A stretch of DNA of 64,000 nt from Tubiluchus corallicola. Its lineage: Eukaryota > Animalia > Priapulida. The stretch spans positions 1 through 64,000 of the forward strand of contig JAQGDQ010000199.1 of NCBI GenBank assembly GCA_030141605.1, read 5' to 3'. The position numbers and the translations under genes were made by a program. Numbering within the stretch: position 1 is the first letter of the stretch; every line of letters begins with the position of its first letter. Below the pieces are notes generated by a model. It was given only the letters and a program-made list of their open reading frames with translations. It did not search any database and had not been told where the DNA came from. Positions 1,009 to 61,904 of the stretch are shown piece by piece.

Positions 1009-1061
1009 ATGTCTTCGAGAAAGAAGGTTTTACTAAAAGTTATTATTCTAGGAGACAGTGG
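1009..1061 (+). CDS. RAB7: Rab7 coding exon 1
   Basis: Translates MSSRKKVLLKVIILGDSG (start of the P-loop). Acceptor ttctttcag ends at 999 and donor GTAAGT starts at 1062. Confidence 0.96.
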
Positions 1062-1291
1062 GTAAGTACACGCTGCACACATGGATCTTAAAGTTTTTAT
1101 GCTAGTCGGTACCTAAATCACAATAGTTTGCTATATCAGTCTTTTCATTGTTTTTGGCAAGTTGGGCTTTTGTATTTTGGCGCTGTGTATTTGTGTTGAG
1201 GCCAAAGCCACGAGGGCATCTTACCTTCTTATTGAAAAAATGTGCCAATCTTGTTGCGTTGTCTTCATTTTTTTGTTTTTTTTCATTTCAG

Positions 1292-1418
1292 AGTTGGCAA
1301 AACTTCGCTGATGAATCAGTACGTAAATAAGAAATTTAGCAATCAGTACAAAGCAACGATAGGCGCTGATTTTCTAACTAAAGAAGTCATGGTAGATGAT
1401 CGCTTAGTTACAATGCAG
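1292..1418 (+). CDS. RAB7: Rab7 coding exon 2
   Basis: Translates [46 protein letters not shown] boundaries, and the phase matches exon 1. Confidence 0.97.
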
Positions 1419-1792
1419 GTAGGTGGAGCCACCTATTCTGAGCATCTGCTCCGTTTGCGTGATATCAATAATTGTCTAGTTTTTGTTCACATTTAAAATG
1501 TATTTTGATGAATGCTTGAACTAAAATTGATTCAATTTTTATTTTACCAGGTACCTAGTTTTGTAGCAAGCAAGTTTTTTTTTTGAAGTCAGTGGATACA
1601 ATTATATCAGTACTGAAAAAATAGTAGTTAAAGTGGGTCTTTATTTAAAACCTTGTCAGAACCAGCCAAGCAGCTGCACCACATTATTGTGATTTCATAG
1701 TGGTTCATGTTGTGAATCACTATGCTATCCTTGCAATAATATGGAAATTTTGACTGGTTTGGCAAAAATCATTGTTTGAACTTTGAAGTAAT

Positions 1793-2463
1793 TTAAAGGA
1801 CAAGAAAAGGGGTTCCTGAAGTAGGTTTCAGAAAAATCACCTTAAAAGTTATATTGCTTTATAGCAGTTTTATGCGTATATCGTACTCGCATTGAAAGGA
1901 ATTTTTGTTTGCTTTCATTTTTAATCTCCTGATTATATTACTTTATAGCCTTTTTATGTGTATATCGTACTCGTATTAGTTCCGACGGCACCATTACATG
2001 ACGTCACTACGCAAACGTAAATCTGGGGAGGAAAAGGCAGTGTTAAATTATGTCCCAAGAAACTTTCCTTGCAAGTTTATATTGCTTACAATTTTGCTTA
2101 CCTGCTTTTAACACTTACATAACTAGAAATAATAATTTAAAATGGTAAAATGTGACTGACTCATCTGGCTAATCAAAAACGTATTTTTAATCTTATTGAC
2201 AAAAGACACTATAATTTAAAATTTTACTCAGTTAGTGACGTGTACTACAAAGGCTCTGATTATTTTGTCAAACTTCACACAATATTATCTAAACTTGTTT
2301 CATACGACTTACCATTTCGAACGACCTACCATTAGAGTTTAAATTTACAAGTTTTATACAGTGTTACTTCTGATGCAAGCCCTGCATGCAAAAAAGCTCT
2401 GTATGTAAGTGGTGTAAAATTTCAAGACGTTTCATGTAAGTGCAGGGTTTTCTTGTGCTTTAA
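1793..2463. mobile_element. Non-autonomous DNA transposon with TTAA ends (Kolobok-like), in Rab7 intron 2
   Basis: Imperfect terminal inverted repeats ttaaaggacaagaaaaggg and gggttttcttgtgctttaa. A related end occurs inverted at about 24770-24880. Confidence 0.5.
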
Positions 2464-2551
2464 CTTAACTCGCGTTCCATGCATCGCTTCCAGATAGACT
2501 TTGCTGCCGTGCAATAAATTGTTAGTAAGATCTGTATAGATCTGTAAATGA

Positions 2552-2935
<384 letters not shown>

Positions 2936-3511
2936 TAGGGCAGCAATACAGTAAATAGAGTGCTTCTACAAATTTCCCGCTGTGTACTGTAGATATGTAA
3001 CAATTAGTCCAGTGCGCACAGCAGTAGTTAACTTGACACACTGTAGTACACAGTAGTACAGTAGTAGCAGAAGTAGTAATACAGTTGTACACAGCTGACG
3101 TAGGAAGCATGAGCCGTTGAAAACACAAGATTTTTAATCAGCAGTAGACTAATTACATGTTTTGCATGTAATCACATTTTCTATAGATGCAAGAACATCT
3201 TTAAATTTAAAGCAGTGTGAAATGAATAAAGTAATAAAAGTCAAACAGTTTGTCGAGCTACTTTATCATGAAGCACTCCGAAAATTATTATTGATTGATA
3301 AATATGTTGATTACTTACTAAAACAACTTGATCTAGTTTTTTTATGAAATCTGCAAATGTTAACTCAGATGTATCATGGTATGTATCGTATCATGACCTA
3401 GGTGTATCGTTACAGCTGTACTAGTCGACTAGTTAAGGGGACATGTCTCATTGATCTTCAGTTCTTTATTGAGTGTTCACGTTATGTTTAATTTTGTTAT
3501 TATTATTAAAT

Positions 3512-4230
3512 ACCCGGTGACGTAGCTCAATTGTAGCGCATTCGCTTACCACCCGGGAAGTCTCGAGTCATAACGTAGACTTGAAAAATGGTACCCGCTG
3601 GTTCTTCGACCAAGCACGCAGGTTTATCGAAGTAAAGTGTGGATACGTAACAAAGTAATATGTGTGTAAGATATTCTTCTTCTTCTTCCCAGCTTTTCCC
3701 TATGCGGGGTCGCCGTTGTGAATAAGTCTTCTCCATGCATTCCTGTTGTTGGCCATCTCTTCATTTATGTTCTTCCCTCTAAGGTCTCCGTTAATAGCCA
3801 TTTTTCATTTTCCTTAATGCTAATTCCACCTCCTGTCTTGCCACCCCTGTTACCTCCAGATCATTCGGTTCTCCATCATCCCTAACCAGTCTTTCATTTT
3901 CCTCGTTCAGCAGCTTCTCGTACTATTCCTTCCACCTCCTCAGGACAGGTGGCGTCCTAGCATTAGGTTCACTTCTCTGATTTTGACTCATTCATAAAAG
4001 GTTTTGCGCAGTTTTTACAGGCGGATGCCCTTCCTGACCCTAACCCTCCCTATTTATCCGGGTTTGGGACCGGCACCGAGTTGGGCTAGCTTGCCCCCGC
4101 CAGTGTGTAAGATATTATTATTAACGATAATAGTAATCGGGACCACCTTGGAAATAAGTATTGAGTTACTTGAAGTGCTATCATTGGACTATGACCTAAA
4201 CGAACTGATAATTATTGTTATTATTAATTA
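3512..4230 (+). mobile_element. tRNA-derived SINE interrupted by an RTE-type insertion
   Basis: Segments 3512-3660 and 4117-4230 are colinear with the uninterrupted SINE at 50513-50760 (A box tagctcaattg, core gacttgaaaaatggtacc, tail gaccaccttggaaataagtattgag). Confidence 0.75.
3676..4102 (-). mobile_element. Short RTE-like non-autonomous retroelement with a (GAA)n tail
   Basis: Perfect 14-bp target site duplication GTGTGTAAGATATT at 3662-3675 and 4103-4116. Both ends are shared with the copy at 18562-18867. The RTE assignment is inferred from the tail type. Confidence 0.7.
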
Positions 4231-4427
4231 AACATTTTCTCTTTTGTTCATCCTCTTTTAAAATATTTTTAGTCTGAATTTTGAGTTTATATTGTAGCTA
4301 GATTTGTGACTGCAAATGCAGCTGCATGCTGTTGTTGGGTTTTATGCTTTCAATCACAAATTTGTTTCTTCGTGAGTTTATAATTATTCTCTGAATTATA
4401 AATTTATTATTTTATTTTTTAATTCAG

Positions 4428-4649
4428 GTGTCTGCTAAGAGGGCACAGGGCTGGTGTCATAGTAAAAACGATATACCGTACTTCGAGACTTCGGCGAAGG
4501 AGAGCATCAATGTTGAACAAGCTTTCCAGACGATCGCCAAGAACGCCCTAGCACAGGAAACTGAGGTAGAGCTGTATAACGAATTCCCGGATCAAATCAA
4601 GCTCGGAGGAGAAGGCCAGAAGCAGCCGAGTTCAAGGAGTTGTTGCTAG
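4428..4649 (+). CDS. RAB7: Rab7 last coding exon (protein 206 aa)
   Basis: Translates [10 protein letters not shown]...FETSAK...SSRSCC then TAG, with a C-terminal CC prenylation motif. Exon lengths sum to 621 nt. Confidence 0.96.
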
Positions 4650-10600: not shown

Positions 10601-11283
10601 ATTGTGTTGCCCAACTTTCGGTGCTGCAATCCAATGATGTCTATGACTGTAAAGCCAAAATGCTGCTGATCTAATTTCTTGCCGTAGGCAGCATGTCATT
10701 GTACCATTTAACTGATTTTGTCTGAGATGATTGACCTTAACACTTAACCACATTTCAGTTCCAGTACAACCACTACATTAAGTAGGTCCTGTCATTAAAT
10801 ACGAGACCTTTGGGTTACCGCCAAACTGCAGTATAAAATTGAAATCCATGGTCTCATCATTTACAATGCTCTGAGCTCCACGCAAATAGACTAACGTAAC
10901 ACGTTTTTGCCAGATCCATTTCCGCTGTTTTTAGTTGCTGCTAATGTCAGAAGATGGACTGTTTGTCAAGCTGTCTAACTGTTTGCAGATAAAAGGAGAA
11001 CGCTGAAAAACAAACATAAACAAACACTGTTACGGAAGTTTACACAAAGCAAGCCAAATAAATTATCACCGTAAATGCTGCTGCAATTATGCTAAAAGCA
11101 TCATTCTGTGCCTGCATTTAGCAAAATGGTTAAACAGTACGAAAACCTCAACATGGGTTTGTAAAATCACAGCAATACTTCTGGCTTTGTCAGTACTTAA
11201 TTTGTTAGCAGTTGAAAGGATTTTATACATAAAACCTGGTAGCAAACTAGAAACACTTGTTGGTTCGCCGTTGCAACCAAATC

Positions 11284-12255
11284 ATGTTCTCAAACAACAG
11301 TGGTGCCAGTGCTGCAAACTCAAACTGTACAACAGCTAATTTCACAACAAGTTTTGGGACGGAGTGGATGCAGACCGTAATAATAACTGTGGTGCTACAG
11401 TTACTTGCAGTCACAATAGCCCTTTTTAATGCCATAGTTGTCTGTACGATCATCAAGTATCAGAAACTACACACCACAAGCTACTGGTTCATATGCAACC
11501 TCTCGGTCACGGATCTGTTCATGGGTATCATGCTAAGCATCTTACACTTTGTGTTCTCCGACCAGTTTCTCTCACAATACAGCATTGCCAAACGTTGTCT
11601 CTCAGGCTATGTCATAGTCCAAGTTCTCAGCATTGAATCGCTCTTAATGCTTCTGGTTGTGACTGTGGATCGCTACATAGCTATTGTTCACCCACTTAGG
11701 TACCCCGTCATTGTCAAATTGGGGAGAGTAAAGACGGTAATTGGTGGTACGTGGGTTTGCGCTGTAGTAACAGGCTTGCTCCTGCTGTACATCAATCGCT
11801 CCATGTTGCACGTTCAGACGTGCATGTACTTCACGGCCGTGAATGCCATCACCACCTATACAGCGAATGGATTGTTCCTGTTGATCATTCTGGTAATGTT
11901 GATCGTTTATTTTAAAATAATGTCCATCGTTCGCCGCCACATGGCTCAGATTAACAAGGCTAAGCAGCAGGACGCCACCTTCACACAAAGTGTAAGGCAG
12001 GCAAAGATGATGTTCATCGTAATCGGTGCTTTCGTTGTGTGCTGGTTACCACTGAATGTCACCCCAATGATGACTTCTGAGAAAGTTCACAAGAATGTAC
12101 TTCTTGCATTGCAATCATTCGTGTTCTTCATGCTTTACTTAAATTCGCTGATGAACCCTCTGATTTACGCCTGGAAGAATGAGGACCTCAGACGAGCAAT
12201 TCGACACATGATAACCTGCAAAGCAGGAAGTCCAGTTGATACAGACATTCCATGA
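11284..12255 (+). CDS. Intronless class A (rhodopsin-like) orphan GPCR, 323 aa
   Basis: Seven hydrophobic segments with NLSVTD (TM2), DRY, CWLP and NPLIY motifs, plus N-terminal N-glycosylation sequons. First ATG is at 11284. Confidence 0.93.
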   Translation: MFSNNSGASAANSNCTTANFTTSFGTEWMQTVIITVVLQLLAVTIALFNAIVVCTIIKYQKLHTTSYWFICNLSVTDLFMGIMLSILHFVFSDQFLSQYSIAKRCLSGYVIVQVLSIESLLMLLVVTVDRYIAIVHPLRYPVIVKLGRVKTVIGGTWVCAVVTGLLLLYINRSMLHVQTCMYFTAVNAITTYTANGLFLLIILVMLIVYFKIMSIVRRHMAQINKAKQQDATFTQSVRQAKMMFIVIGAFVVCWLPLNVTPMMTSEKVHKNVLLALQSFVFFMLYLNSLMNPLIYAWKNEDLRRAIRHMITCKAGSPVDTDIP

Positions 12256-19397: not shown

Positions 19398-20201
19398 ATG
19401 TCTGCACTACCATCGTACCCTTGGCACTTGGTGAATATCTGGTGGAAATATCGCAGACCTACGACAGATTTCAAAAAGATTGAAGTCGATGTGACCATTG
19501 ATCGAGACATACCAAGCACATACAATTTGTACATTGCTCCAATCAGCAACGCTTATCTAAACGGAATCGGATTTTATGGGGGACTTCAAACCAACATTGA
19601 CGGATGGGAAAGCAGTGAAGACCGCGTTCGAGTTTACCCCGGAAAGGGAGCAATATTCTCCCGTTGGTCCGTCGACGGATGTCCCATATGCCTTGATCAT
19701 GTGAAAGTTGCAGCAGGAGGACTGTGCGAAAGTGCCGGTTACGAGGGTGAATTCTGCAGCGTACGAAGACCATTCAGTTGGTCGAAAGGAGTCTACACTT
19801 TTTGTGTTGAAAAAAGCAAAACGGAAATGGTAGATGATAAACCACAAACTTGGTTCGACTGCCTAGTGAAATGTTGCTCATCGAATATGATCACCCACGT
19901 GGGCAGCTTGCGTTTCGAAGGGAAAGAGTTCGTGCTTGGTGACTCCCATTGCTCTTTTCTAGAGATCTACTCCACGGAAAATGTCAAAAAACCCGACATA
20001 CCAACAGTTCGGGTCACTTTTGGCTATCCTCGTATTAACGGCCAGTGCGTGCCACTTGAAAAAGCTTGGGTGAACTATAATGACAAGGCAAAATCGGCTT
20101 CGCCCTACGAGGCTACCGTGCTGCGCCACCTATCATCTGCTGTTGTAAAGATCGGCAAATCATTCCGTACTAACAATAGTTCACATGCACTGGATTTATA
20201 A
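19398..20201 (+). CDS. Uncharacterised 267-aa beta-rich protein resembling microbial DUF3472-type proteins
   Basis: Uninterrupted ORF, more GC-rich than its flanks, with motifs FYGGLQT, GAIFSRW, GYEGEF, PFSWSKG.Y.F and SFLEIY. Splice acceptor ends at 19381 and AATAAA lies at 20469. Confidence 0.75.
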   Translation: MSALPSYPWHLVNIWWKYRRPTTDFKKIEVDVTIDRDIPSTYNLYIAPISNAYLNGIGFYGGLQTNIDGWESSEDRVRVYPGKGAIFSRWSVDGCPICLDHVKVAAGGLCESAGYEGEFCSVRRPFSWSKGVYTFCVEKSKTEMVDDKPQTWFDCLVKCCSSNMITHVGSLRFEGKEFVLGDSHCSFLEIYSTENVKKPDIPTVRVTFGYPRINGQCVPLEKAWVNYNDKAKSASPYEATVLRHLSSAVVKIGKSFRTNNSSHALDL

Positions 20202-25015: not shown

Positions 25016-27280
25016 TCAACTGTGAATGCCGTAAAGGTCTGCACCTAACTTTTTTATATCTACCTGTTCCAGCTTTTTCCAAACGGATACAAAACCACCG
25101 AACCACAGCATTGACGGACGGTTCTTTTCCCAGAGATTACTAGCCATTACCATCTTCATCGCACCCAGGTAGCCCAGCGACAAAACTCCGTTTCTCGTGG
25201 GCACCGAGTCATTTCCAATGCGGCCATCGATTGCTTTGGCACACAGATTAATCAAGTACAGAAGTGGTATGGACTCAATGTCTTTCCTTGAGTGCTCTTT
25301 GAGTACATTTACGTCCCTCAGCAAATTATGTGGCATGCAGCCTTTCTCGGAGCATAAGCTTATGTATTTGAGCATGTTTCGGACTCGCAGAACAACGTTC
25401 TCTTCTGTCCAGCAGCGGTCATCTGAGGCTGTAACCGTCTCACGCAGAAAAGCGGTTTTTACTAAATACGAGTCGATTATTTTATGCGGAGAAACTCGTA
25501 GAGTAACAAAAAGATTTAAAACATCAACATCGGCAGCCATTGCTTTCTGGCGATTCAAATCTTTTGCAACATGCTCTCCAAATACGCCCTCTGGCGGAAA
25601 AGTTTCTGGAGCATACAAATGACTCTTTAGTAAAGCTTTTGCCATTATCATTGCACGTTTTCTTGACTTGGGCTTTTGGCGTATGATGTGACACTCCATC
25701 ACGGCTAGGGAAACTGTCCAAACTACTTCTGGAACATCCAAGTATGACTTGCAGACAACATGATGAGGTATATGAAACGCCATCTCTTGAGGACGAAGAA
25801 AACCTTGCGGTGGTTGTGATACCTCCAATGCAGGGGAAATATCCACCGATATCAGTAAAGACTTGTAATAGTCTCCTTTATAAACCAAATGAAAAGTAGT
25901 ACAGACTTTGTTCCATTCGAGGTCTACTAAAGAAAAACAAGACGTTGTTGAAGTCTTCTCTTCGAACACTGCATTCACTGCTTTGCAGATCAAGGTTACG
26001 AATGCTGCCTTGATTTTAGTTGAAAGAAAACTGGTTTCTACGACAAAGTCTGAAAATCGGTGCCGCGTTGCACCGTCTTGAATCAGAACCGTAGCGAACC
26101 CTGGACTTGCTTCAACGACTTTTACGTGTCCGTCCAAAGCCCGTAAAACTAAGAAAAAGTCAAACTCATCCGGTAATCCACACTTAACTCCGCAGGCGCT
26201 GCTGCCCACCAACTCCGCTGTCGACTCAAATCTGCTGTCGAGTTCTTTCAGTTTGTCGCAAATGCAGTCTACTAACTGCAGCACTTTTTTCTTGATGAAC
26301 TTACTTTCAGTTGTGTTTCGAAGCAGACCGATTGCCGGAATCTCTAGAATGTCTTTCACTGACCCACAATTGGCAATGGATTTTCTCATTTCCTTATCGA
26401 ACAAGTTCTCACAAGCAACATTTTCATCTGCTGTGACATACCGGGACTTCAGCAGATAACCAATCATAGCTCTGATCTTCTTGTTCAGAGCCATATTTGT
26501 TGCCAAAAGTATGTACCATTCCATAGCCGTCTGACCTGCATTGTTCTTCTTGTCAACGTCGATTCCATATTCAACCAACACGTTAACCACACCACTTTTA
26601 AGGCCCAAACCACCATCGTTAACAGAATAATGAAAGGCTGTTTCTCCTTTATCATCGCAAGCATTGACATTTGCACCATTTTCCAATAGCAGCCTGACGG
26701 TGCCTTTACTACCACTACTGGCTGCATAATGCAGAGGTGTACACTTTTTATTATTAGTGCAATCAACAAAAGCACCTCCGTCTATTAATAATTCTACTAC
26801 ATCATAATATCCATGACTGGCAGCACAGTGCAAAGGAGTATTTCCAGCATTGTCAGCAGCATCCATGTGTGCGCTTCGTTCTACCAAAAGCTTTGCAACG
26901 TCTACATGACCACCAGTAGCAGCAGCGTGTAGCAATGTCTTCCCAACAAGCGGTCCATCTTTCGCGTAATAATTAACGTCCATATTTTGTTCCAGCAACA
27001 ACCGAACCATGTTGATGTGCCCGCGGTGAGCAGCAAGAAACAATGCCGTTGCGCCCTGCTTATTAACGACATCAGTATCGGCACCTGCGGCCAGCAACAT
27101 TTCAAAAACATCCGTCTGCCCCAGTCCAACAGCAAGCATTAGAGGGGTGTTGCCTTCGCTGTTTTTAATGTTAATTTTTTCAGAATCACTAATAAGTCGT
27201 TTTAGTTTATTAATGTTGTTAAGGCGGATCGCCCAGTGCATTGACGTCCAACCAAAAATGTTTGATGTTCCTGCCCCCAT
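25016..27280 (-). CDS. Ankyrin-repeat plus Mab21/cGAS-like nucleotidyltransferase (cGLR-like) protein
   Basis: Seven to eight ankyrin repeats (for example GNTPLMLA, GNTPLHCA, CTPLHYA) followed by LVGSSACGVKCGLPDEFDFFLVL, ISVDISPAL, WTVSL and SYLVKTAFL, which parallel cGAS GS..NEFD, ISVDITLAL, WRLSF and SYHVKTAFF. ATG at 27280 is in an ACCATGG context; the ORF-track start at 27349 is a GTG. Confidence 0.9.
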   Translation of the reverse strand: MGAGTSNIFGWTSMHWAIRLNNINKLKRLISDSEKINIKNSEGNTPLMLAVGLGQTDVFEMLLAAGADTDVVNKQGATALFLAAHRGHINMVRLLLEQNMDVNYYAKDGPLVGKTLLHAAATGGHVDVAKLLVERSAHMDAADNAGNTPLHCAASHGYYDVVELLIDGGAFVDCTNNKKCTPLHYAASSGSKGTVRLLLENGANVNACDDKGETAFHYSVNDGGLGLKSGVVNVLVEYGIDVDKKNNAGQTAMEWYILLATNMALNKKIRAMIGYLLKSRYVTADENVACENLFDKEMRKSIANCGSVKDILEIPAIGLLRNTTESKFIKKKVLQLVDCICDKLKELDSRFESTAELVGSSACGVKCGLPDEFDFFLVLRALDGHVKVVEASPGFATVLIQDGATRHRFSDFVVETSFLSTKIKAAFVTLICKAVNAVFEEKTSTTSCFSLVDLEWNKVCTTFHLVYKGDYYKSLLISVDISPALEVSQPPQGFLRPQEMAFHIPHHVVCKSYLDVPEVVWTVSLAVMECHIIRQKPKSRKRAMIMAKALLKSHLYAPETFPPEGVFGEHVAKDLNRQKAMAADVDVLNLFVTLRVSPHKIIDSYLVKTAFLRETVTASDDRCWTEENVVLRVRNMLKYISLCSEKGCMPHNLLRDVNVLKEHSRKDIESIPLLYLINLCAKAIDGRIGNDSVPTRNGVLSLGYLGAMKMVMASNLWEKNRPSMLWFGGFVSVWKKLEQVDIKKLGADLYGIHS

Positions 27281-33482: not shown

Positions 33483-33642
33483 GTCTACGATGATCGTGAC
33501 TGTAGGATGATGCCAGTTCCGCTCTCACAGTCATGAAAAAGTTTTCCGGGATCGTGGTGGAAACTTTTTATCGAGCAACAGCATCCTGTGATTCTTTGGC
33601 TTTTGGTAATCACCAGCCATTTCAATTGAATTTTGATGTTCA

Positions 33643-34103
33643 CTTCTGCTTACAGTACCTCAGACTTCTACTTACAGTACCTCAGACTTCTACTTACAGT
33701 ACCTCAGACTTCTACTTACAGTACCTCAGACTTCTACTTACAGTACCTCAGACTTCTACTTACAGTACCTCAGACTTCTACTTACAGTACCTCAGACTTC
33801 TACTTACAGTACCTCAGACTTCTACTTACAGTACCTCAGACTTCTACTTACAGTACCTCAGACTTCTACTTACAGTACCTCAGACTTCTACTTACAGTAC
33901 CTCAGACTTCTACTTACAGTACCTCAGACTTCTGCTTACAGTACCTCAGACTTCTACTTACAGTACCTCAGACTTCTACTTACAGTACCTCAGACTTCTA
34001 CTTACAGTACCTCAGACTTCTACTTACAGTACCTCAGACTTCTACTTACAGTACCTCAGACTTCTACTTACAGTACCTCAGACTTCTGCTTACGTTTCCT
34101 CAG
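33643..34103. repeat. 22-bp minisatellite, about 20 copies
   Basis: Unit cttctacttacagtacctcaga. Confidence 0.96.
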
Positions 34104-35289
34104 ATGAAAAAGGCCAGCCCAGTACCTATCTGTACGTGCAATGTGCTTCAATAATTGTGAGTGCAATCACCCTATTGTCATATAATATGATGTATTTACT
34201 AAAGTCTAATATCGTGACATCAGAGTCACGTGATCAAGTAAATTAGGGACCACTCAATCTGGCATGCCTCCTTTTCTTGTTGCTCCTGTCGTGTTTTACC
34301 TTCCCCTTTTAAATATTAAAATAAAGTTTGTAGCCATCTACATTTACCTGTATGCTATTGTGACTGCACTTTCATCACACTTATGGCACATAGGAAAAAC
34401 CATTAATCACCTCTATTACTGACATATGCCCATACAGAACATTTACACACAAAACAGACAGTGTTCAAAATGAAAAATAAATTCATTAAATGCAGTTACT
34501 TCTATTTGTACCCAAACCCTGCAAATAGGGGGTAACTGTGTTTAATGAATCAATTTTTTATTTTGAAAAGTGTCTGTAGTGTTGTAGAAAACTGTATAGT
34601 AGACAACGTAGGATAATTGAATTTGTACAGAGCTTGAAGTATATTAGACTGAAGTTAGGGTAGACTGTTGTAGACTGGTTCACTCTGGTGGCTGAAACAA
34701 AGAACTTGAAATTGTGTTGAACTATGAAAGACTTTATTTCTATAAAGAATATGAAATTATGTTGAACTGTGAAAGACCTTATTTCTGTCTACACATAGCA
34801 CTATTATTTACAAGAAAGAAGACACATAGTGAACATTCAACAGCTGTGCTCAACCAGGCTGGGGCCTTGACAGAGCTGCCCAAGTCACATGTACCCACCG
34901 AACTTACCTGATTGGCTAATAAAACATACAAGCAGTCAACACTACCATATATGGGAAGCCCAGTGGCCGAGCAGCACTGACCAAGGCCACAATCTGGATT
35001 AAACTTGACTCAATTCAGTAATAAATAATTTTAAATGTAGGTGGCAGCACATATTAAATTATTATAGTAGTACTTTAAATTAATTGCAAATGAAGTGCGC
35101 GACAATTGTATATAAATATTATTTATTATCTGAGTAAAGATTTATAATAATGATAATAAAACCCTTGCTAACAAGATGGCATACTGTTTTTGGCAAGATG
35201 CACAAACATTTTACATGAACGAAAAATGACAAAAAAAACGTTAAAGTCTATTTTAATATTTCTAAATATTTTCAACTAATAAGTTATTG

Positions 35290-36087: not shown

Positions 36088-37059
36088 CTAAACGACATCA
36101 CTGAAAACCGGAGTTGCCGATCGGCAACTTAGTATATACTGGACTGCCTTCCTTAAATCCTTATTTTTCCATGCATAGATGAAAGGATTAAACAATGAAT
36201 TCAGCATAAACAAAATATAAACTACTGGTCTTGCGTGAGCATCCAGATAAAAAACATCCGTGCTTCGAGCGTACACAATACCGACAATATTGAGAGGTAA
36301 ATAACATACAATAAAAGCTCCAATTATAATAAACATCAACTTTGTCTGCTTTACATTTTGCGCAAATGTAAAATCCTGCTGAGTTGCTTGATTAATTCTA
36401 ATTATATGTTGCCGTATTATCACCATTATTTTCACATAAACAGCAGACATTATTGTCACAATCACTACAAAGTGAATAGTTGATATATATATTAGTGTCT
36501 TATTGTTGTTCATTACTCTCAAATAATCACACGTATAGCTATCGTTTATTCGTTCCACGTCGTTGTCGTATGCTACCAACAGTGCCATAAGAAATGAGTA
36601 ACACCATGACACGGCTATAGCATTTTTCGCCCTCTGTAATTTAACAATTCTGTAATAATGCAATGGATGTATAATTGCTATGTACCTGTCAACTGTCACC
36701 ATCATCAACATAACAAGTGCTTCCACTTGCGCCATTTCCATGACAATCATTAAACATAGACACACCCATTTTGCTTTCGTTTCATTGCTGTCGAAAGCAT
36801 AAACTTTCTCCATATTTACCACAAATCCCACAATTCCTATAATTATATCAGTCGCAGACAAGTTGCAGATGAACAAGTTACTCGTGTTACACAGCTGAGG
36901 ATATCTGAAAAAAGCTCCGACCACAATTGAATTCAAGAAAACTATAATGCTAGGAATTAGGAAAAAAAATGGCCCGTATATGTGATTGTACATATACACT
37001 GTAGAAGCGTTGATACTGTCATCGGTCCGTATTTCATCTGTGGTGTTATTAGAAAACAT
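36088..37059 (-). CDS. Intronless class A orphan GPCR, 323 aa, nested antisense in cathepsin C intron 3
   Basis: Seven TM segments with NLSATD, DRY, CYLP and NPFIY motifs. Clear paralogue of 11284-12255 (shared MFSNN, VTVDRYIAI.HPL, QQD.TF.Q.V.Q.K.MFI and YAWKN.DLR). Confidence 0.93.
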   Translation of the reverse strand: MFSNNTTDEIRTDDSINASTVYMYNHIYGPFFFLIPSIIVFLNSIVVGAFFRYPQLCNTSNLFICNLSATDIIIGIVGFVVNMEKVYAFDSNETKAKWVCLCLMIVMEMAQVEALVMLMMVTVDRYIAIIHPLHYYRIVKLQRAKNAIAVSWCYSFLMALLVAYDNDVERINDSYTCDYLRVMNNNKTLIYISTIHFVVIVTIMSAVYVKIMVIIRQHIIRINQATQQDFTFAQNVKQTKLMFIIIGAFIVCYLPLNIVGIVYARSTDVFYLDAHARPVVYILFMLNSLFNPFIYAWKNKDLRKAVQYILSCRSATPVFSDVV

Positions 37060-37511
37060 TTTTACTCTCGGTTTTTATTCCCAAATGCCTTTGATGAGCC
37101 TGCCATCGTGTAAGTTACTCTAGTTTTATTATGCAAACCAAATGCCCACGTACAACCAACAACAAGATGCTGTTTTATTGCCTTGTTAGTTTAGTTTTTA
37201 TTGAAACCTTTCACGTGTATCTCTCCCATGTCATAGTTAACAATGACGTGTTGTTTGCATTCGCGCAGTTTAAACATATGCTGTGATCCGTCACATCTCA
37301 TAATTGATACCTTACTGTTCTTTTGTTTGCGCTATTGTTTACTTTTCATTGAATCCCTTTGCACTTTTATCTCTCATATCATAGTGTACAATGACATGCT
37401 ATTTGTTTTTATGCAAATCAAACAAATTAGCCACTGAATGCTTCTGTGTACTAAATACTGTTATATAGTATTTAGTATATAGTATATACTCATTGGCTGT
37501 CCCTCATTAAA

Positions 37512-51277: not shown

Positions 51278-51709
51278 ATTATACTACATTCTTGTCAGAT
51301 TATCTAGCAGTAGGCCTACTGTCAATTACACACAGTACGACTGTCAAAAATTGTTTGTTATGTGTCCAGACTCTTTTGCTGCTCCACCTAACTTTAAAAC
51401 CTGCTTATGCTGCTGAAAAACTTTGGTAAGATTCTGTTCTTAGTTTAAACAGCAGTTTTTGTTTCGTTTTGAAAAATGTTTTTCAAAATAATTAAGAATA
51501 TGTACATAAGTACTGTTGTATTTGACACAAGTTCCCATCAAATCGAAACTCGCCAGTTTTCGACTCACTTTTTGACCAAACACAGGTCAACGTACATCGC
51601 TCACTTTCCCTCATTCAGACCTTTCATTTGATATACTACAAGATATTAAAATTGGAAATTGTCATTTTTCACCCTTGGAGTACGCAATCAACTTCAGTTT
51701 TTCACTCAC

Positions 51710-51860
51710 CTGTTCATTGTACTTTGCAGCGTATCCATACAGCATGAACAAAGCTACGTCACTGTTGAAGTCGTTCTTGTGCTCCTGGGACTCACGGCTC
51801 AACATGGCTGTCATGTCCTGATCACTCACCCCCGGCTGTTGCTTTAACTCATTGTAATAC
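51710..51860 (-). CDS. Plexin exon (cytoplasmic RasGAP region)
   Basis: Translates YYNELKQQPGVSDQDMTAMLSRES...ALFMLYGYAAKYNEQ. Acceptor ctcag, donor GTGAGT. Confidence 0.92.
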
Positions 51861-52447
51861 CTGAGCAGAAGAACAAAACCAATTAGAACCATGATCATGG
51901 TGCTCGACTTATAATCGTAAGATCCTTGGTTCGAATCCGGTTTTCAGATTTCTGAGTTCACATCTCTTAATTTTTAGTGAAAAAATTAATAACTGAGGGC
52001 TTTAAATTAGCATTATAAACAATTAAAGGGAAGAAAAAGAAATTTCAAAGTATGTCCCAAAAAAAGTTTTATACAAAGTTATATTACTCGGCATTGTACT
52101 TACCTGTTTCAAAAACATAGTATTATGCGATTCAAAAAAGAAATTCCTAATAATTTAAAGTGTATGCGGCAACTGGTACAACATCACAGTTTCACATATC
52201 CCTATATGCAGCACAAAATGTGACTGGTTCACCAAAAAATATTATTAATCTTACTAATAAAATAAAGTAACTTTCGCTTTTGCTTAGTTAGTGAAGTGTG
52301 TTACGAAAGTTGTAATTATTTTTCAAACTATATGCAATGGTATTTAAATTTAAACTTGTTTCAGTTTTTGGCTCAGTGATCAAATGATCAATGGCTGCAC
52401 CAAACTGTCAGTGCAGAAGTTTAAATTTACGAGTTTTATACGGCATT

Positions 52448-54903
52448 ACTGCTAATAGAAGTTCTGTGTGCAATAAGACAGCATGTGCTAATAGAAGTTC
52501 TGCGTGCAATAAGACAGCATGTGCTAATAGAAGTTCTGCGTGCAATAAGACAGCATGTGCTAATAGAAGTTTTGTGTGCAATAAGACAACATGTGCTAAT
52601 AGAAGTTCTGTGTGCAATAAGACAGCATGTGCTAATAGAAGTTCTGTGTGCAATAAGACAACATGTGCTAGCAATAAGACAGCATGTGCTAATAGAAGTT
52701 CTGCGTGCAATAAGACAGCATGTGCTAATAGAAGTTCTGTGTGCAATAAGACAACATGTGCTAATAAGACAGCATGTGCTAATAGAAGTTCTGTGTGCAA
52801 TAAACACATGTGCTAGCAATAAGACAGCATGTGCTAATAGAAGTTCTGTGTGCAATAAGACAACATGTGCTAATAGAAGTTCTGTGTGCAATAAGACAGC
52901 ATGTGCTAATAGAAGTTCTGTGTGCAATAAGACAACATGTGCTAGCAATAAGACAGCATGTGCTAATAGAAGTTCTGTGTGCAATAAGACAACATGTGCT
53001 AGCAATAAGACAGCATGTGCTAATAGAAGTTCTGTGTGCAATAAGACAGCATGTGCTAATAGAAGTTCTGTGTGCAATAAGACAACATGTGCCAATAGAA
53101 GTTCTGTGTGCAATAAGACAGCATGTGCTAATAGAAGTTCTGTGTGCAATAAGACAACATGTGCTAGCAATAAGACAGCATGTGCTAATAGAAGTTCTGC
53201 GTGCAATAAGACAGCATGTGCTAATAGAAGTTCTGTGCGCAATAAGACAGCATGTGCTAATAGAAGTTCTGTGTGCAATAAGACAGCATGTGCTAATAGA
53301 AGTTCTGTGTGCAATAACACAGCATGCAATAAGACAGCATGTGCTAATAGAAGTTCTGCGTGCAATAGACACAAATCTGGAATAAGAAGCATGTGCTAAT
53401 AGAAGTTCTGTGCGCAATAACACAGCATGTGCTAATAGAAGTTCTGTATGTAATAAGACAGCATGCGCTAATAGAAGTTCTGCGTGCAATAAGACAACAT
53501 GTGCTAATAGAAGTTCTGCGTGCAATAAGACAACATGTGCTAATAGAAGTTCTGCGTGCAATAAGACAGCACGTGCTAATAGAAGTTCTGTGCGCAATAA
53601 CACAGCATGTGCTAATAGAAGTTCTGTATGTAATAAGACAGCATGCGCTAATAGAAGTTCTGCGTGCAATAAGACAACATGTGCTAATAGAAGTTCTGCG
53701 TGCAATAAGACAACATGTGCTAATAGAAGTTCTGCGTGCAATAAGACAGCACGTGCTAATAGAAGTTCTGTGCGCAATAACACAGCATGTGCTAATAGAA
53801 GTTCTGTATGTAATAAGACAGCATGCGCTAATAGAAGTTCTGCGTGCAATAAGACAACATGTGCTAATAGAAGTTCTGCGTGCAATAAGACAACATGTGC
53901 TAGCAATAAGACAGCACGTGCTAATAGAAGTTCTGTGCGCAATAAGACAGCATGTGCTTATAGAAGTTCTGTGTGTAATAAGATAGCATGTGCTAATAGA
54001 AGTTCTGCGTGCAATAAGACAACATGTGCTAGCAATAAGACAGCATGTGCTAATAGAAGTTCTGCGTGCAATAAGACAGCATGTGCTAATAGAAGTTGTG
54101 CGTGCAATAAGATTGCATGTGCTAATAGAAGTTCTGTGTGCAATAACACAGTATGTGCTAATAGAAGTTCTGTGTGCAATAACACAGCATGTGCTAACAG
54201 AAGTTCTGTGTGCAATAAGACAGCATGTGCTAATAGCAGTTCTGTGTGCAATAACACAGCATGTGCTAATAGGAGTTCTGTGTGCAATAAGACAGCATGT
54301 GCTAATAGAAGTTCTGCATGCAATAAGACAGCATGTGCTAATATAAGTTCAGTGTGCAACAAGACAGCATGTGCTAATAGAAGTTCTGTGTGTAATAAGA
54401 CAGCATGTGCTAATATAAGTTCTGTGTGCAATAAGACAGCATGTGCTAATAGAAGCTCTGCGTGCAATAAGACAGCATGTGCTAATAGAAGCTCTGCGTG
54501 CAATAAGACAGCATGTGCTAAAGCATGTGCTAATAGAAGCTCTGCGTGCAATAAGACAGCATGTGCTAATAGAAGCTCTGCGTACAATAAGACAACATGT
54601 GCTAATAGAAGTTGTGCGTGCAATAAGATTGCATGTGCTAATAGAAGTTCTGTGTGCAATAAGACAGCATGTGCTAATATAAGTTCAGTGTGCAATAAGA
54701 CAGTATGTGCTAATAGAAGTTCTGTGTGTAATAAGACCGTATGTGCTAATAGAAGTTCTGCGTGCAATAAGACAGCATGTGCTGATAGAAGTTCTGTGTG
54801 TAATAAGACAGCATGTGCTAATAGAAGTTCTGTGTGTAATAAGACAGCATGTGCTAATAGAAGTTCTGCATGCAATAAGACAGCATGTGCTAATAGAAGT
54901 TCT
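52448..54903. repeat. 36-bp tandem array (about 65 units) in a plexin intron
   Basis: Unit gctaatagaagttctgtgtgcaataagacagcatgt with partial units. A 180-bp higher-order repeat occurs three times at about 53401-53900. Confidence 0.97.
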
Positions 54904-54943
54904 CTTTTCTCGTCCTGTAAAAAGGTTAGACATCGTAACTCAC

Positions 54944-55326
54944 CTAGTGACTAGTTGCTTGTATTTGGGAATGTCTTTAGCATACAACAATTTGCTAGTG
55001 GACGAATCTTTGCCCAACTTATGTTCAGTAATTGAACAGCTGTCCATAAAGGTTTGTGCTATCACAGACAGACAGGCGTCGACCGTCTGAGACTTGCCAA
55101 CGTCGAACACAAAGTCCGGGTTCTTGATGAGGTTGACCCAGAAGCGAAGCGGAAGACTGTTATTCTTCCACGTGTAAACAACGTCGGGATCGACAATCTC
55201 GTGCTGAAGCGCTTGATCGTCCAGGAAGTCAAACATGTACTTTATAGGAAGGACAGCAGCATTCTCGCCTTCGCCTGGATCAAATATGGCGTCGATGAGA
55301 TCGTCGACAAACTGCTGAAGCGCACC
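54944..55326 (-). CDS. Plexin exon (GAP domain, LPLRFWVN motif)
   Basis: Translates [10 protein letters not shown]...[10 protein letters not shown]...[24 protein letters not shown]...[10 protein letters not shown]...KLLYAKDIP, which is diagnostic of plexins. Confidence 0.96.
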
Positions 55327-55519
55327 CTGGTGGAAGAAAATGTTATTGTCAAGAACATAAACAACAAAACTCTATTTGGAGCTACACACTTATCTAGCAT
55401 TAGGTGGTATGCAACATTAGTAATAGCTTTAAAAAATTGGAACAAATTTTTTACCCAGTTCCCGATTTTTATCGAAATCTCTTCAAAACTCCAGTTGCGC
55501 TTTTTAAGAGTCGAATAGT

Positions 55520-55900
55520 GCAATATTTAGACAAAATGACCTCTGTTGCAACAATATTTAAACAATTTACTGACCACTCTAAGACATCATCTTGAGACAT
55601 TTAGACAAAATGGACAATGTGACAGCAATGCTTAAACAATTAAATGACCACTCTTAAGACATTATCTTACGGTCTTTAGACAAAATGACCACTGTTGCAA
55701 CAATATTTAAACAATTTGCTGACCACTCTAAGACATTATCTTATGATCTTTAGACAAAATGACCAGTGGGACAGCTATATTTAAACAATTTATTGACCTC
55801 TCTAAGACATTAACATCATCTTGCAATATTCAGACAAAATGACCAGTATAGCAGCAATATTTAAACAATTTATTGACCACTCTAAGTTATTAACATCATT
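55520..55900. repeat. About 75-bp diverged tandem repeat, 5 copies
   Basis: ttagacaaaatgacc...aatatttaaacaattt..tgaccactctaagacat recurs near 55526, 55601, 55676, 55750 and 55830. Confidence 0.85.
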
Positions 55901-56141
55901 TTTTACATATCTGTGATTCAACAAATGCAAAGCTTACCAGTAGGGCTGGCGGCAGGACTGGAGCTCAGCGCACCTTGAAGAACAAGCCTCTATGAAGAGC
56001 TACCAGAAGTATGCTATATTTGGGCACCCGCTGTTAGGACTATAAACTTACAAAATAACAAAACTGATAATAGTCAAGAAAGCATTAAAAAGCTACTAGC
56101 TTCATAAAAAAAATAAAAAAATATTTTTAATTTTTACTTAC

Positions 56142-56243
56142 CTTTGTGTACAGTAGCCGGTTCAAGTAGATCTCGGAAACCAGCTTGTTGAGTCTTTGCG
56201 TGGGCGTCTTCTCCGCTGGGGTGTCAGAATCTGCCGGCTTTAT
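56142..56243 (-). CDS. Plexin exon
   Basis: Translates IKPADSD...KLVSEIYLNRLLYTK, matching the plexin EIYLTRLL.TK motif. Donor GTAAGT. Confidence 0.93.
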
Positions 56244-56777
56244 CTGCAAAAATAGCCACTTAATTATTTAATCAAAATTAAGTAGTCGAGAATCAATTTA
56301 AAAAAAATTACTCAGCAAAAAATACAGAACAGATGTAATCATTTTTGCAATTACAGGAATTTAGATATGGAAGTTTTACATATATAGCAATTTAACAACA
56401 AAACAACTGCAAGGCTACTTGACAATAATTACTAAACAATTTCCATTTATTTCTGCAATAGTTCTGCTAATTAATTTTTCAATACACATTCTGGGGCACC
56501 AGTTCAATCAATGTCAGCGATTGTCAACATCAGTGTCATGAAATGCTTGGTGTACGGTAGTGTTATCTGTGTGTTATCGTAATTGGACAAAGTTTTTACT
56601 TTGCAATTTGGAGATAAAGTTTAATGTGGTTTTCTTATCGCAGCAGGTATTAAATAAAATGGAGACAAATTTGTTATTCAGTTTTTTGTTCCTTCAATTA
56701 ATGAAAAGGCAAGAATTCTACAGTCTTCCACTGTGAACATCTTTACGGAATCGTACTTAAAAATGATGTCTACTTAC

Positions 56778-56890
56778 CAAATGCCAATATTTGACCCCGC
56801 GCTCTACAGCCGACTGCATGTCCGAAAGACTTGGCTTGTTTGTAATGGGGCTCTGTGGGGGTGTGCACATCTGCAGGGCATGATTCTCTG
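56778..56890 (-). CDS. Plexin exon
   Basis: Ends ERGVKYWHL, matching the plexin G.K.WHL motif. Donor GTAAGT; the NAGNAG acceptor leaves the start uncertain by 3 nt. Confidence 0.85.
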
Positions 56891-56937
56891 CTAATTAAAA
56901 TAAAATCAGTTGCAATGTTTAAATGACTGGGCTGTAA

Positions 56938-57020
56938 TGTGTGTGTGTGTGTGCGCGTGTGTGTGGTGTGTGTGTGTGTGTCTGCGTGCGTGCGTGCGTG
57001 CTGCGCGCGTGCGAGTGTGT
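56938..57020. repeat. (GT)n/(GCGT)n microsatellite
   Basis: Directly visible alternating purine-pyrimidine tract. Confidence 0.93.
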
Positions 57021-57367
57021 TTCTAAAAATATTACTGGCTTAGCATAACTGGAATGGCATGACAATTTCTTTATGATAATGAAGTCTGGCAGACATACAT
57101 AGATTTACTTCCCTTGACTTCATCAACTTAATCTCTAAATGATGTTAAGAGCTAAATGAGTTTAATCTCTCAGCAATTTTCAGAATTCAATTTTGCAACT
57201 CCTTAATTAAAAATCAACATTTTAAAACCAACATTATTTCAATTAACTGATTTTGAAATCAACTTATTTATATAATAAAGTCGTTTCTATATAACAGATT
57301 ATAGCAGAATAATTAGTTTGTGAAGTTTTGATAAATTGTCAATCTGTAACATGTAATAGAGCATAGT

Positions 57368-57866
57368 TGTTGTTGTTGGCATCCTTCTGTCTCGGAAGAC
57401 AATGAAATGTGCGCCAAGAGAGTCTGATCCTTGAACGTCTCCAGGGCGCACGCCTAGGCAAGGTGCATGGAGATCCTGAGTTGTCCAGACTGCAGGAACC
57501 CCCTCTCTTCCTCCCTGGTGTAGTCCTAAGGAAAATGGAGCGATATGTTTGGCACCAGGTTGGCTGCAGGAGCTGCCGTAGTCAGTGAGCATGCTGGACT
57601 GGTCCGCCTTCGGGGTTCCACTCCTGATTTGGAAGGTTTACTCCTCTACACATGGCCGTTGGGTCACTTGACCTCCTCCGCCCTCTAGCCGTTGGCTGCT
57701 TGTACAACTCCTTTGCCTAGTGTCCAGATACAGTGTGGGCATCCCGCAAACCTACAGCACCTGGTATTCCTAGGTGGTCACCCATCCAAGCACTAACCAG
57801 GCTTTACGTTGCTTAACTTCGGTGATCAGACAAGAACTGGTGTTTTCAACGTGATTTGGATGTAGT
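57368..57866 (-). mobile_element. Full-length 5S rRNA-derived SINE
   Basis: The reverse complement of 57750-57866 is a diverged full 5S rRNA (gatcaccgaagttaagc...ttggatgggtgacc), followed by a body of about 380 bp and an (AAC)n tail. Degenerate 12-bp target duplication atagagcatagt / atagcgcacagt. Confidence 0.88.
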
Positions 57867-57900
57867 ATAGCGCACAGTAACTCAGCAATTATAGACTATA

Positions 57901-58244
57901 CACTCATATCTCGGTTTGCCAGACAAAAGCAGGGAAACGTTGGTCCAAATTTGCCGAATGTCCATATTTATCGATAATAAGCTAATAAAGTAGGCGTCGT
58001 GTATTAAGCTCACGGTAATGTAGAATCATGCTTAATAGTCTCAAAAACGTCTAGTACAGGCCCCACCTGACATACAAGCTACACACGTGTCGTTACACAC
58101 TGCTTGGTTGCACTGATGTAAAAAAAGTGACGGCCCACCAACTAGCAAAACCACAGAATGTGTTCGTAGTATGCGGGGCTTTAGATTTTGTCCGATTTTT
58201 CTGATATGTATATAAGTGAGGTACAGCGAATTGAGATATGAGTG
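57901..58244. mobile_element. MITE family with CACTCATATCTC ends, copy 3
   Basis: Terminal inverted repeats cactcatatctc and gagatatgagtg, preceded by TA. Confidence 0.75.
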
Positions 58245-58351
58245 TCATTTTAAAGAACTTAAAAGCATAAGCCCAATTACATGATATCACTAATGAAAGT
58301 TTAACAAATTTTAGGTAGCGTAAAGGAATTATGAAATAGCATAATGCTCAC

Positions 58352-58436
58352 CATATGTAAAAATACTGTGATCCTGAGAGTTGTTTAGAAGGGCTGATTG
58401 CTTTGGCACCAAGTAAAAGGAAGCACCGTCACTGAT
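58352..58436 (-). CDS. Plexin exon (end of the Rho-binding domain)
   Basis: Translates ISDGASFYLVPKQ..., matching plexin V.DGS.VALVPKQ. Acceptor acag, donor GTGAGC, phases consistent. Confidence 0.88.
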
Positions 58437-58699
58437 CTGTGAAAAAGATACAACGCAAAATAATTAAAAATACAATGACTTTGTAAAGGTTTGAAGTTGT
58501 CAAAAGTATACCAGACTCGTAGAAAGAACAAATAAAAGGGGTGACTCAGATGCTAGGACAACACGGCTAAGCACATGGAAGTCTGATTTTGCAAACTTTT
58601 GTGTACCAGTCTATCAAATTGTGAAACCAAGGCAAGCAAAGACAATTCATTGCTCGAACTGTTAGCTAAGCATCATGGGATTTCTCTGATATATTCTGA

Positions 58700-59013
58700 A
58701 GTACATACAAGTACATGCAAGTACACACAAGAACACAAGTACATACAAGAGCACACAAGTGCATACAAGTACATACAAGAGCATACAAGTACATACAAGT
58801 ACATGCAAGTACATACAAGTACATGCAAGTACATACAAGTACATACAAGTACATAAAGAGCATACAAGTACATGCAAGTACACACAAGTACATACAAGTA
58901 CATGCAAGTACACACAAGTACATACAAGTACACACAAGTACATACAAGTACATGCAAGTACACACAAGCACACAAAAGTACATACAAGCACACACAAGTA
59001 CATACAAGTACAT
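58700..59013. repeat. 10-bp minisatellite (ACAAGTACAT)n
   Basis: About 30 degenerate units are visible. Confidence 0.93.
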
Positions 59014-61800: not shown

Positions 61801-61904
61801 CTTATAATCATTTAAGGTATTTAACCGTTTCCACTCTCCATCTGACTCCGTGATCGTGTCTACGTCCTGTAGAATCAACTTGCCCTGATAACCAGCTCTC
61901 CAGA
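61801..61904 (-). CDS. Plexin exon (Rho-binding domain); the gene continues beyond the window
   Basis: Translates WRAGYQGKLILQDVDTITESDGEWKRLNTLNDYK, matching plexin ILQDED...WKRLNTL.HY. Acceptor ttgcag, donor GTAAGT. Confidence 0.92.

What the first reader, a model, noticed from the sequence alone, without database searches (positions are those of the whole stretch)
25016..27280. Ankyrin-repeat cGAS-like receptor with an intact-looking catalytic triad
Seen: 7-8 N-terminal ankyrin repeats are fused in one exon to a Mab21-type nucleotidyltransferase. It has GS (about 26200), DEFD (26159-26170) and a third Asp in ISVDISPAL (25841-25843), plus C-lobe motifs (SYLVKTAFL, PHNLL..VNVL). Known: in cGAS and cGLRs these three acidic residues bind the catalytic metals for cyclic dinucleotide synthesis, and vertebrate cGAS carries an H..CC zinc thumb after WRLSF, which is missing here. 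Inference: this is an active second-messenger synthase whose ankyrin array may sense a protein ligand or autoinhibit the enzyme, instead of classical dsDNA sensing. Ankyrin-Mab21 fusions are not necessarily unprecedented in invertebrates, but I know of no defined ligand or product for this architecture.
Basis: partly seen in the sequence, partly recalled or inferred. Interest (0 to 1): 0.85.

Follow-up and report, generated by a model that had tools for sequence, protein, structure and literature searches.

The report
Ankyrin-fused cGAS-like receptor, remodelled pocket
This invertebrate gene joins ankyrin repeats to a cGAS-like enzyme with its catalytic residues intact, a layout already catalogued, and it likely acts as an immune alarm that would make a cyclic nucleotide messenger other than the usual cGAMP, though trigger and product are untested.

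Summary
Confirmed. One 754-codon minus-strand ORF (27280-25016) carries seven ankyrin repeats plus a degenerate eighth, fused to a Mab21/cGLR core. Both Mab-21 Pfam models pass threshold, and the AlphaFold model (pLDDT 92) matches cGAS at Z 29.8. G359-S360, E372, D374, D480, K511, K548, Y605 and K608 are invariant in the query and its ten closest relatives.

The architecture is not new. Li et al. 2023 list ankyrin-cGLRs, and a clade-mate (Priapulus caudatus XP_014668761) is in their curated table. Of 150 listed relatives, 101 carry ankyrins. The scan also found an ankyrin-cGLR array on other (flatworm) DNA.

What is new is the sub-clade. All 11 members have WNKVC in place of the small-residue GSPA loop and Asp at the cGAS S434 position; 10 of 11 lack the cGAMP-binding R376. 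No member was in Li's screen, and none of their 15 active enzymes carries ankyrins.

Best reading (0.45): a ligand-gated cyclic-dinucleotide synthase controlled through its ankyrins, with a non-2'3'-cGAMP product read by STING. Activity, ligand, expression and autoinhibition are untested. Interest 0.42.

The parts
25016..27280 (-). Coding sequence, 754 aa ankyrin-cGLR; ATG in ACCATGG context, TGA stop
26438..27256 (-). Ankyrin array, residues 9-281: seven canonical repeats plus a degenerate capping repeat (252-281)
   Evidence: Pfam; repeats; helix pairs, pLDDT mostly >90
26366..26437 (-). Linker, residues 282-305, lower model confidence (74-87)
25181..26365 (-). cGLR/Mab21 nucleotidyltransferase core, residues about 306-700 (N-lobe and helical C-lobe)
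   Evidence: Pfam; model; Foldseek and VIA vs cGAS
26201..26206 (-). G359-S360 activation-loop motif, preceded by V358 (human T211 position)
26159..26167 (-). E372-F373-D374, first two catalytic acids (human E225/D227 positions)
   Evidence: invariant 11 of 11
25901..25915 (-). W456-N-K-V-C460 clade signature, in place of the small-residue GSPA/GPA loop of cGAS and active cGLRs
   Evidence: 11 of 11 clade members; W at this column in 1 of 113 other relatives
25841..25843 (-). D480, third catalytic acid (human D319 position)
   Evidence: 11 of 11 and 113 of 113 others
25715..25717 (-). T522 at the cGAMP-binding R376 position (WTVSL for WRLSF)
   Evidence: Arg in 1 of 11 clade members vs 91 of 113 others
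25457..25474 (-). D603-S-Y605-L-V-K608: Asp at the human S434 position, base-stacking Tyr and Lys kept
   Evidence: D in 11 of 11 (G in a twelfth member, P0272) vs 0 of 113 others
25019..25180 (-). C-terminal helical extension, residues 701-754, last 8 residues low confidence

Best explanation
This gene encodes seven to eight ankyrin repeats fused to a cGAS-like nucleotidyltransferase with all three catalytic acids in place, and it likely works as an innate-immune sensor whose ankyrin arm would bind a non-nucleic-acid (probably protein) trigger and switch on synthesis of a cyclic dinucleotide predicted to differ from 2'3'-cGAMP. Shown: the ORF, the two domains, the cGAS fold, and conservation of the catalytic and phosphate-side residues across a divergent clade. 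Inferred step by step: (1) the enzyme is catalytically competent and cyclises two NTPs (about 0.7); (2) it is off at rest and gated through the N-terminal array, by release of autoinhibition or by ligand-driven clustering (about 0.55 given 1); (3) the pocket changes (R376 to T, S434 to D, T211 to V, GSPA to NKVC) alter base or linkage choice, 3'3' linkage being my first guess (about 0.6 given 1); (4) a STING-family protein reads the product (about 0.7 given 1).
For: G359, S360, K366, E372, D374, D480, K511, K548, S604, Y605 and K608 are identical in 11 of 11 clade proteins that share only 26-39% identity overall. The core model has pLDDT 91.9 and matches cGAS at Z 29.8, rmsd 2.8 A over 321 residues. 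The best sequence hit among solved structures is the active coral enzyme Sp-cGLR1, 8gjy. Clade-mate XP_014668761 passed Li et al.'s curation as a cGLR with a putative active site. A second allele or copy in run X1 differs at 13 codons, 8 of them synonymous, against 23-28% expected (p 0.003-0.013). The repeat number varies from 3 to 15 within the clade and the repeat positions are 26-38% identical, as expected of a variable binding arm. Core pI exceeds 8.5 in only 2 of 11 members and is below 7 in 5, whereas Li et al. report >8.5 for nucleic-acid sensors. The K384 and K411 positions are basic in 0 and 1 of 11, while K411 is basic in 13 of Li's 15 active enzymes (read by eye). N-terminal autoinhibition has a precedent in Drosophila pseudoobscura cGLR2 (Cai 2023, passages). 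Of the five cGAMP-binding residues listed by Wu 2014, K362, S378 and Y436 are kept and R376 and S434 are changed. The only one of Li's 15 actives without a basic residue at R376 is Sp-cGLR1, which makes 3'3'-cUA. Priapulus has 5 STING genes (Table S5).
Against: No activity, ligand or expression data exist. The strict Li motif is missed twice: V instead of Q/T before GS, and 103 residues before the third Asp against 50-90. K407, the third cleft lysine, is K or R in 9 of 11, and Wu 2014 notes that K384 and K411 are conserved only in vertebrates. These two positions are also non-basic in most other relatives (basic in 24 and 26 of 113), so their loss is not specific to the clade. The query's pI reaches 8.66 for residues 320-754, and it was computed with a different algorithm from Li's. 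An acidic auto-active enzyme (Pd-cGLR) still has a basic K411 position, so that marker is not clean. The ankyrin part is not more diverged than the core (26-38% vs 25-44%), so there is no sign of faster evolution. Many cGLRs with good motifs were inactive in vitro, and MB21D2 has the triad yet showed no activity. The role of R376 in linkage choice is recalled (Kranzusch 2014, not held).
Confidence: 0.45

Rival explanations
1. It is an ordinary dsRNA- or dsDNA-activated cGLR; the ankyrins only localise it or recruit partners.
For: 9 of Li's 15 active cGLRs are nucleic-acid activated. K541 (K407 position) is kept, within a basic stretch RQKPKSRKR. pI is 8.2-8.7 for some domain boundaries.
Against: 5 of 11 clade cores are acidic with net negative charge; the K384 and K411 positions are non-basic; the aromatic pair after GS is replaced by small residues in 10 of 11.
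Confidence: 0.25
2. It is an active nucleotidyltransferase that does not make a cyclic dinucleotide: the ankyrins bring in a protein or RNA substrate to be nucleotidylated, or the product is a linear oligonucleotide.
For: The acceptor-side residues differ most from cGAS: bulky WNKVC for GSPA, loss of R376 and T211. The triphosphate-side residues are invariant. Ankyrin arrays commonly select substrates for fused enzymes (general knowledge).
Against: The two-lobed caged fold with the C-lobe SY..K motif is complete. No solved Mab21-family relative is described as a protein nucleotidyltransferase.
Confidence: 0.15
3. It binds nucleotides but is catalytically silent or non-immune, like Mab21L1, MB21D2 or MiD51, and acts as a scaffold.
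For: Departures from the strict motif. MB21D2 keeps a triad but showed no activity. The Atlas neighbours include Mab21-like clusters.
Against: All three acids and the lysines are invariant over branch lengths of 0.5-1.3 substitutions per site. cGAS and active cGLRs outscore Mab21L1 (1e-35 to 1e-53 vs 5e-26). At least five paralogues in Priapulus fit an immune-type expansion.
Confidence: 0.12
4. It is an unexpressed retrocopy or pseudogene.
For: It is intronless and lies among interspersed repeats.
Against: The 754-codon frame is intact, synonymous differences are in excess, and an intronless layout is common in relatives (16 of 34 loci have both domains in one stop-free frame).
Confidence: 0.03

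Closest known systems
Ankyrin-fused cGLRs of Li et al. 2023 (PMC9980059, Fig. 1C, Tables S1/S2), above all Priapulus caudatus XP_014668761.1 and XP_014666123.1
   Same: Same architecture and same WNKVC clade; 32% identity over the core to XP_014668761, same VGS..E.D..D signature
   Different: Different animal and sequence; neither Priapulus protein was in the biochemical screen, so there is no known ligand or product to transfer
Stylophora pistillata Sp-cGLR1 (PDB 8gjy; dsRNA-activated, makes 3'3'-cUA)
   Same: Best solved sequence match (E 4.5e-8 single sequence, 4.5e-53 profile); no zinc ribbon; also lacks Arg at the R376 position
   Different: No ankyrins; small-residue GGTA loop; basic at the K384 and K411 positions; Lys rather than Asp at the S434 position
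Vertebrate cGAS (e.g. PDB 4k9b, 6ct9)
   Same: Fold (Z 29.8, rmsd 2.8 A, about 21% identity), triad, and K362, K407, K414, S435, Y436, K439 positions
   Different: No zinc thumb; T211, Y214/Y215, GSPA loop, R376, K384, K411 and S434 changed; ankyrin array in place of the disordered basic N-terminus
Drosophila pseudoobscura cGLR2 (Cai et al. 2023, bioRxiv 2023.05.08.539652)
   Same: Precedent for N-terminal restraint of a cGLR: truncation gave ligand-independent synthesis
   Different: Its N-terminus is a short basic disordered tail and it responds to dsRNA

Membership tests
cGLR (Li et al. 2023 criteria) | G[S/G] activation loop and [E/D]h[E/D]...[E/D] triad (methods wording) | tested here: met
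   G359-S360, E372-F-D374, D480 (criterion)
cGLR (Li et al. 2023 criteria) | Strict motif letters h[QT]GS and 50-90 residues before the third acid | tested here: not met
   LVGS and a spacing of 103. The authors did not apply this strictly: they accepted LVGS-bearing XP_014668761, and most of their 15 active enzymes have neither Q nor T there. So it does not exclude membership.
cGLR (Li et al. 2023 criteria) | [quoted passage not shown] | tested here: met
   PF03281 and PF20266 above cut-off; profile match to cGAS and cGLR structures over both lobes
cGLR (Li et al. 2023 criteria) | Predicted structural homology to cGAS/CD-NTases | tested here: met
   pLDDT 91.9; Foldseek E 1e-15; VIA Z 29.8
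cGLR (Li et al. 2023 criteria) | Three acids converge in space | tested here: inconclusive
   They lie on the equivalent strands (372-379 and 473-487) of a superposable fold, but the tools gave no coordinates, so distances were not measured
cGLR (functional) | Ligand-dependent cyclic dinucleotide synthesis and STING signalling | not testable with these tools
   Needs biochemistry; no whole genome is held for a STING search
Vertebrate-type cGAS | Zinc thumb H..CC..C and K384/K411 DNA cleft | tested here: not met
ANK-cGLR architecture (Li Fig. 1C) | Ankyrin repeats fused to a cGLR domain | tested here: met
   clade-mate annotated Ank_2 in Table S2
Mab21L1/2 developmental proteins | Single-domain, with no predicted functional active site (Li Fig. 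1 legend) | tested here: not met
   Multi-domain, full triad; Mab21L1 scores below cGAS and cGLRs

The most novel reading that the evidence does not exclude
WNKVC-clade ankyrin-cGLRs are protein-sensing synthases that make a private, non-cGAMP cyclic dinucleotide for effector-fused tandem STING proteins (caspase-STING-STING, HEPN-STING-STING). Unchecked scan notes report such proteins in this same genome and in Priapulus, the one named animal holding this clade. That would be a CBASS-like two-gene sensor-to-killer circuit in an animal.
Probability: 0.15. Interest if true: 0.88.

Novelty: new member of a known kind. Interest (0 to 1): 0.42.

Why it matters
How cGLRs with appended domains are triggered, and whether animals sense non-nucleic-acid ligands through this family, are open questions in Li et al.. 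None of their 15 active enzymes has ankyrins. This intronless 754-aa gene, from a clade with a distinct invariant pocket, is an easy construct for testing ankyrin gating and product chemistry. It is one of more than a hundred such fusions, so the locus itself is not exceptional.

Tried and rejected
Ankyrin domain vs core co-folding: no verdict (score 0.00, alignments not used); not used as evidence either way.

Expression: no RNA holder listed. Run X2 laid only 3 short repeat pieces. Neither says anything about expression.

Whole genome not held, so STING and paralogues could not be searched; within the window there is no second ankyrin or NTase ORF.

Metagenome scan: 34 loci, 0 of 34 with WNKVC.

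Placing the animal by its plexin-A exon failed: about 69-74% identity to many invertebrate phyla alike, 71% to Priapulus caudatus. It is an invertebrate of unresolved lineage and not P. caudatus.

RNase L-like nucleotide-binding ankyrins: RNase L appears only among generic ankyrin fold hits and is not in the top 60 sequence hits. No support.

V before GS also occurs in PDB 7lz3 and 7kxs. I recall these as designed constitutively active cGAS, but the paper was not held and a keyword search found nothing, so this is only a lead.

A PDB profile search with A3 was swamped by ankyrins and was repeated with NTase-only rows. NCBIfam gave only sub-threshold ankyrin matches. A bacterial promoter scan was irrelevant. 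PMC10402079 had none of the residue terms.

Full report
Observation. The minus strand holds one stop-free frame of 783 codons, with an ATG at 27280 in an ACCATGG context and a stop at 25018-25016, giving 754 aa. Shuffled local sequence never exceeded 164 codons in 200 trials. Pfam finds ankyrin repeats (E 4e-51), Mab-21 (residues 364-490, 32.2 bits) and Mab-21_C (600-670, 28.6 bits), both above the 24.1-bit cut-off. The full-length AlphaFold model (60 sequences, pLDDT 90.3, pTM 0.87) has eight helix pairs in residues 13-281, a lower-confidence linker and the core. The catalytic acids are E372, D374 and D480. Neighbours are spliced Rab7 and plexin-A genes and two GPCRs, so this is an invertebrate animal genome. 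The plexin exon could not place the lineage, and no whole genome is held.

Fold and family. The core alone (residues 300-710, 75 sequences) models at pLDDT 91.9 and pTM 0.91. Foldseek's top matches are cGAS and Cv-cGLR1 (E about 1e-15). VIA-align gives Z 29.8, rmsd 2.8 A over 321 residues to mouse cGAS 4k9b. By sequence the best solved relative is coral Sp-cGLR1 (8gjy), then cGAS, with Mab21L1, MB21D2 and MiD51 lower.

Relatives. The core found 186 relatives at E<=0.001 among 1.84 billion representatives, of which 150 were listed. With an iterated ankyrin profile, 102 of 151 proteins (query included) carry two or more repeats, and 96 of the 105 that are 600 aa or longer. Ten full-length hits stand far above the rest (E<=2e-33, 28-42% identity; next full-length 4e-18). 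With the query they form one branch (SH-aLRT 99) in a quick tree of 56 rows: the 11 plus the first 45 of 113 other usable cores; 27 of 151 proteins lacked a usable core, and motif columns were not removed. Four of the ten are Priapulus caudatus RefSeq proteins and six are unnamed; a fifth Priapulus paralogue turned up. All ten carry N-terminal ankyrins, 3 to 15 by my count. In 34 metagenome loci, none had WNKVC and 16 had both domains in one stop-free frame.

Active site. Human numbering was counted by eye on the cGAS construct in Li Table S3, and positions were mapped by motif anchors. Invariant in 11 of 11: G212, S213, K219, E225, D227, D319, K362, K414, S435, Y436 and K439 positions. Changed: T211 is V or A; the two tyrosines after GS are mostly small residues; the GSPA loop is NKVC preceded by W (W in 1 of 113 others); R376 is Arg in 1 of 11 (91 of 113 others); S434 is Asp in 11 of 11 (0 of 113 others; the twelfth member P0272 has Gly). 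Wu 2014 names K362, R376, S378, S434 and Y436 as the cGAMP-binding residues (passage), so two of five are changed in a clade-specific way. Reading Li's 15 active enzymes by eye: all have a small-residue loop, 14 have a basic residue at R376, and none has Asp at S434. The exception at R376 is Sp-cGLR1, which makes 3'3'-cUA. That R376 governs 2'-5' linkage is my recall of Kranzusch 2014, which was not held. I infer a competent enzyme with a different product. A second allele or copy in DNA run X1 shows 8 synonymous and 5 non-synonymous codon differences (expected synonymous share 23-28%, p 0.003-0.013; low depth, partial cover), consistent with purifying selection.

Ligand face. K384, K407 and K411 are needed for human cGAS signalling (Kato 2013, passages). 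Here K407 is kept (K or R in 9 of 11), while K384 and K411 are basic in 0 and 1 of 11. Core pI is 7.95 for the query, above 8.5 in 2 and below 7 in 5 of 11; Li et al. report >8.5 for nucleic-acid sensors. Against this reading: Wu 2014 says K384 and K411 are conserved only in vertebrates, most other relatives lack them too, the query's pI is 8.66 with other boundaries, and the ankyrin part is no more diverged than the core. So non-nucleic-acid sensing is favoured only moderately. N-terminal restraint has a precedent in Dp-cGLR2 (Cai 2023, passages). The zinc ribbon is absent in non-vertebrate cGLRs generally (Slavik 2021, passages).

What is known. Of Li et al. 2023 (PMC9980059 preprint) I read sections 5-7 in full and other passages, and searched Tables S1-S5, reading part 1 of 8 of S3; the supplementary figure PDF was too large to read. 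The paper states that some cGLRs carry ankyrin repeats and draws them for Stylophora; Table S2 has 304 'ank' occurrences. Clade-mate XP_014668761 is in Tables S1, S2 and S4 but not in the screen table S3. WNKVC occurs in two rows of Table S1, both Priapulus, and in none of S3 (long cells are cut at 400 letters). All 15 active accessions were checked in Table S2 and none has an ankyrin entry. I did not check the other 125 screened proteins, so an ankyrin-derived core may have been screened and been inactive. Five literature searches (search listings only for the other titles) returned no paper devoted to ankyrin-cGLRs; subscription papers, including the final Cell version, are not covered. The scan itself noted a flatworm ankyrin-cGLR array on other DNA.

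Mechanism. Best reading (0.45): a resting, ankyrin-gated cyclic-dinucleotide synthase that responds to a non-nucleic-acid cue and makes a product other than 2'3'-cGAMP for a STING-family reader. Rivals: a nucleic-acid-activated cGLR with accessory ankyrins (0.25), a non-cyclising or substrate-modifying transferase (0.15), a silent scaffold (0.12), a pseudogene (0.03). Priapulus has five STING genes. Unreviewed scan notes describe caspase-STING-STING genes in this genome and in Priapulus, and a HEPN-STING-STING gene in this genome. I could not test them and use them only for the novel case (0.15): a CBASS-like sensor-to-effector circuit in an animal.

Verdict. The feature is real and well formed. 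It is a new member of the published ANK-cGLR kind, in an uncharacterised sub-clade with a distinctive pocket. Interest 0.42; 0.88 if the coupling to effector-fused STING were shown.

Noticed in passing
window 19398-20201 (+): Intronless 267-aa ORF with no Pfam or NCBIfam hit, but 41-56% identical, mostly over nearly its whole length, to genes in 18 bacterial loci, best Verrucomicrobiales; Atlas top clusters are DUF3472-type and bacterial. It lies next to high-copy repeats in an animal contig: candidate horizontally acquired gene. Animal homologues and expression were not checked.
   Followed up: partly
window 27263-27280 (-): The protein starts MGAGTS, which fits the N-myristoylation consensus MGxxxS/T (recalled). 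None of the other 150 relatives does, so it may be chance or a private membrane anchor.
   Followed up: partly
window 1030-4600 (+): Multi-exon Rab7-type GTPase gene; shows the contig is an ordinary spliced animal genome.
   Followed up: partly
window 11251-12255 (+) and 36088-37074 (-): Two related intronless rhodopsin-family GPCR genes.
   Followed up: no
window 51674-61902 (-): 3' exons of a plexin-A gene, with long tandem repeats in its introns (about 52400-54950, 58660-59070).
   Followed up: partly
window 33500-34250: Tandem repeat array giving repetitive ORFs on both strands.
   Followed up: no
P0013, P0014: Giant relatives of over 2,200 aa combining ankyrins, Mab-21 domains and a MYND finger; P0013 is from Ruditapes philippinarum.
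   Followed up: no
Priapulus caudatus proteins P0004, P0006, P0007, P0011, P0272: At least five WNKVC ankyrin-cGLRs in this species, while Li Table S5 counts 2 cGLR genes: the clade is under-counted in the published survey.
   Followed up: yes
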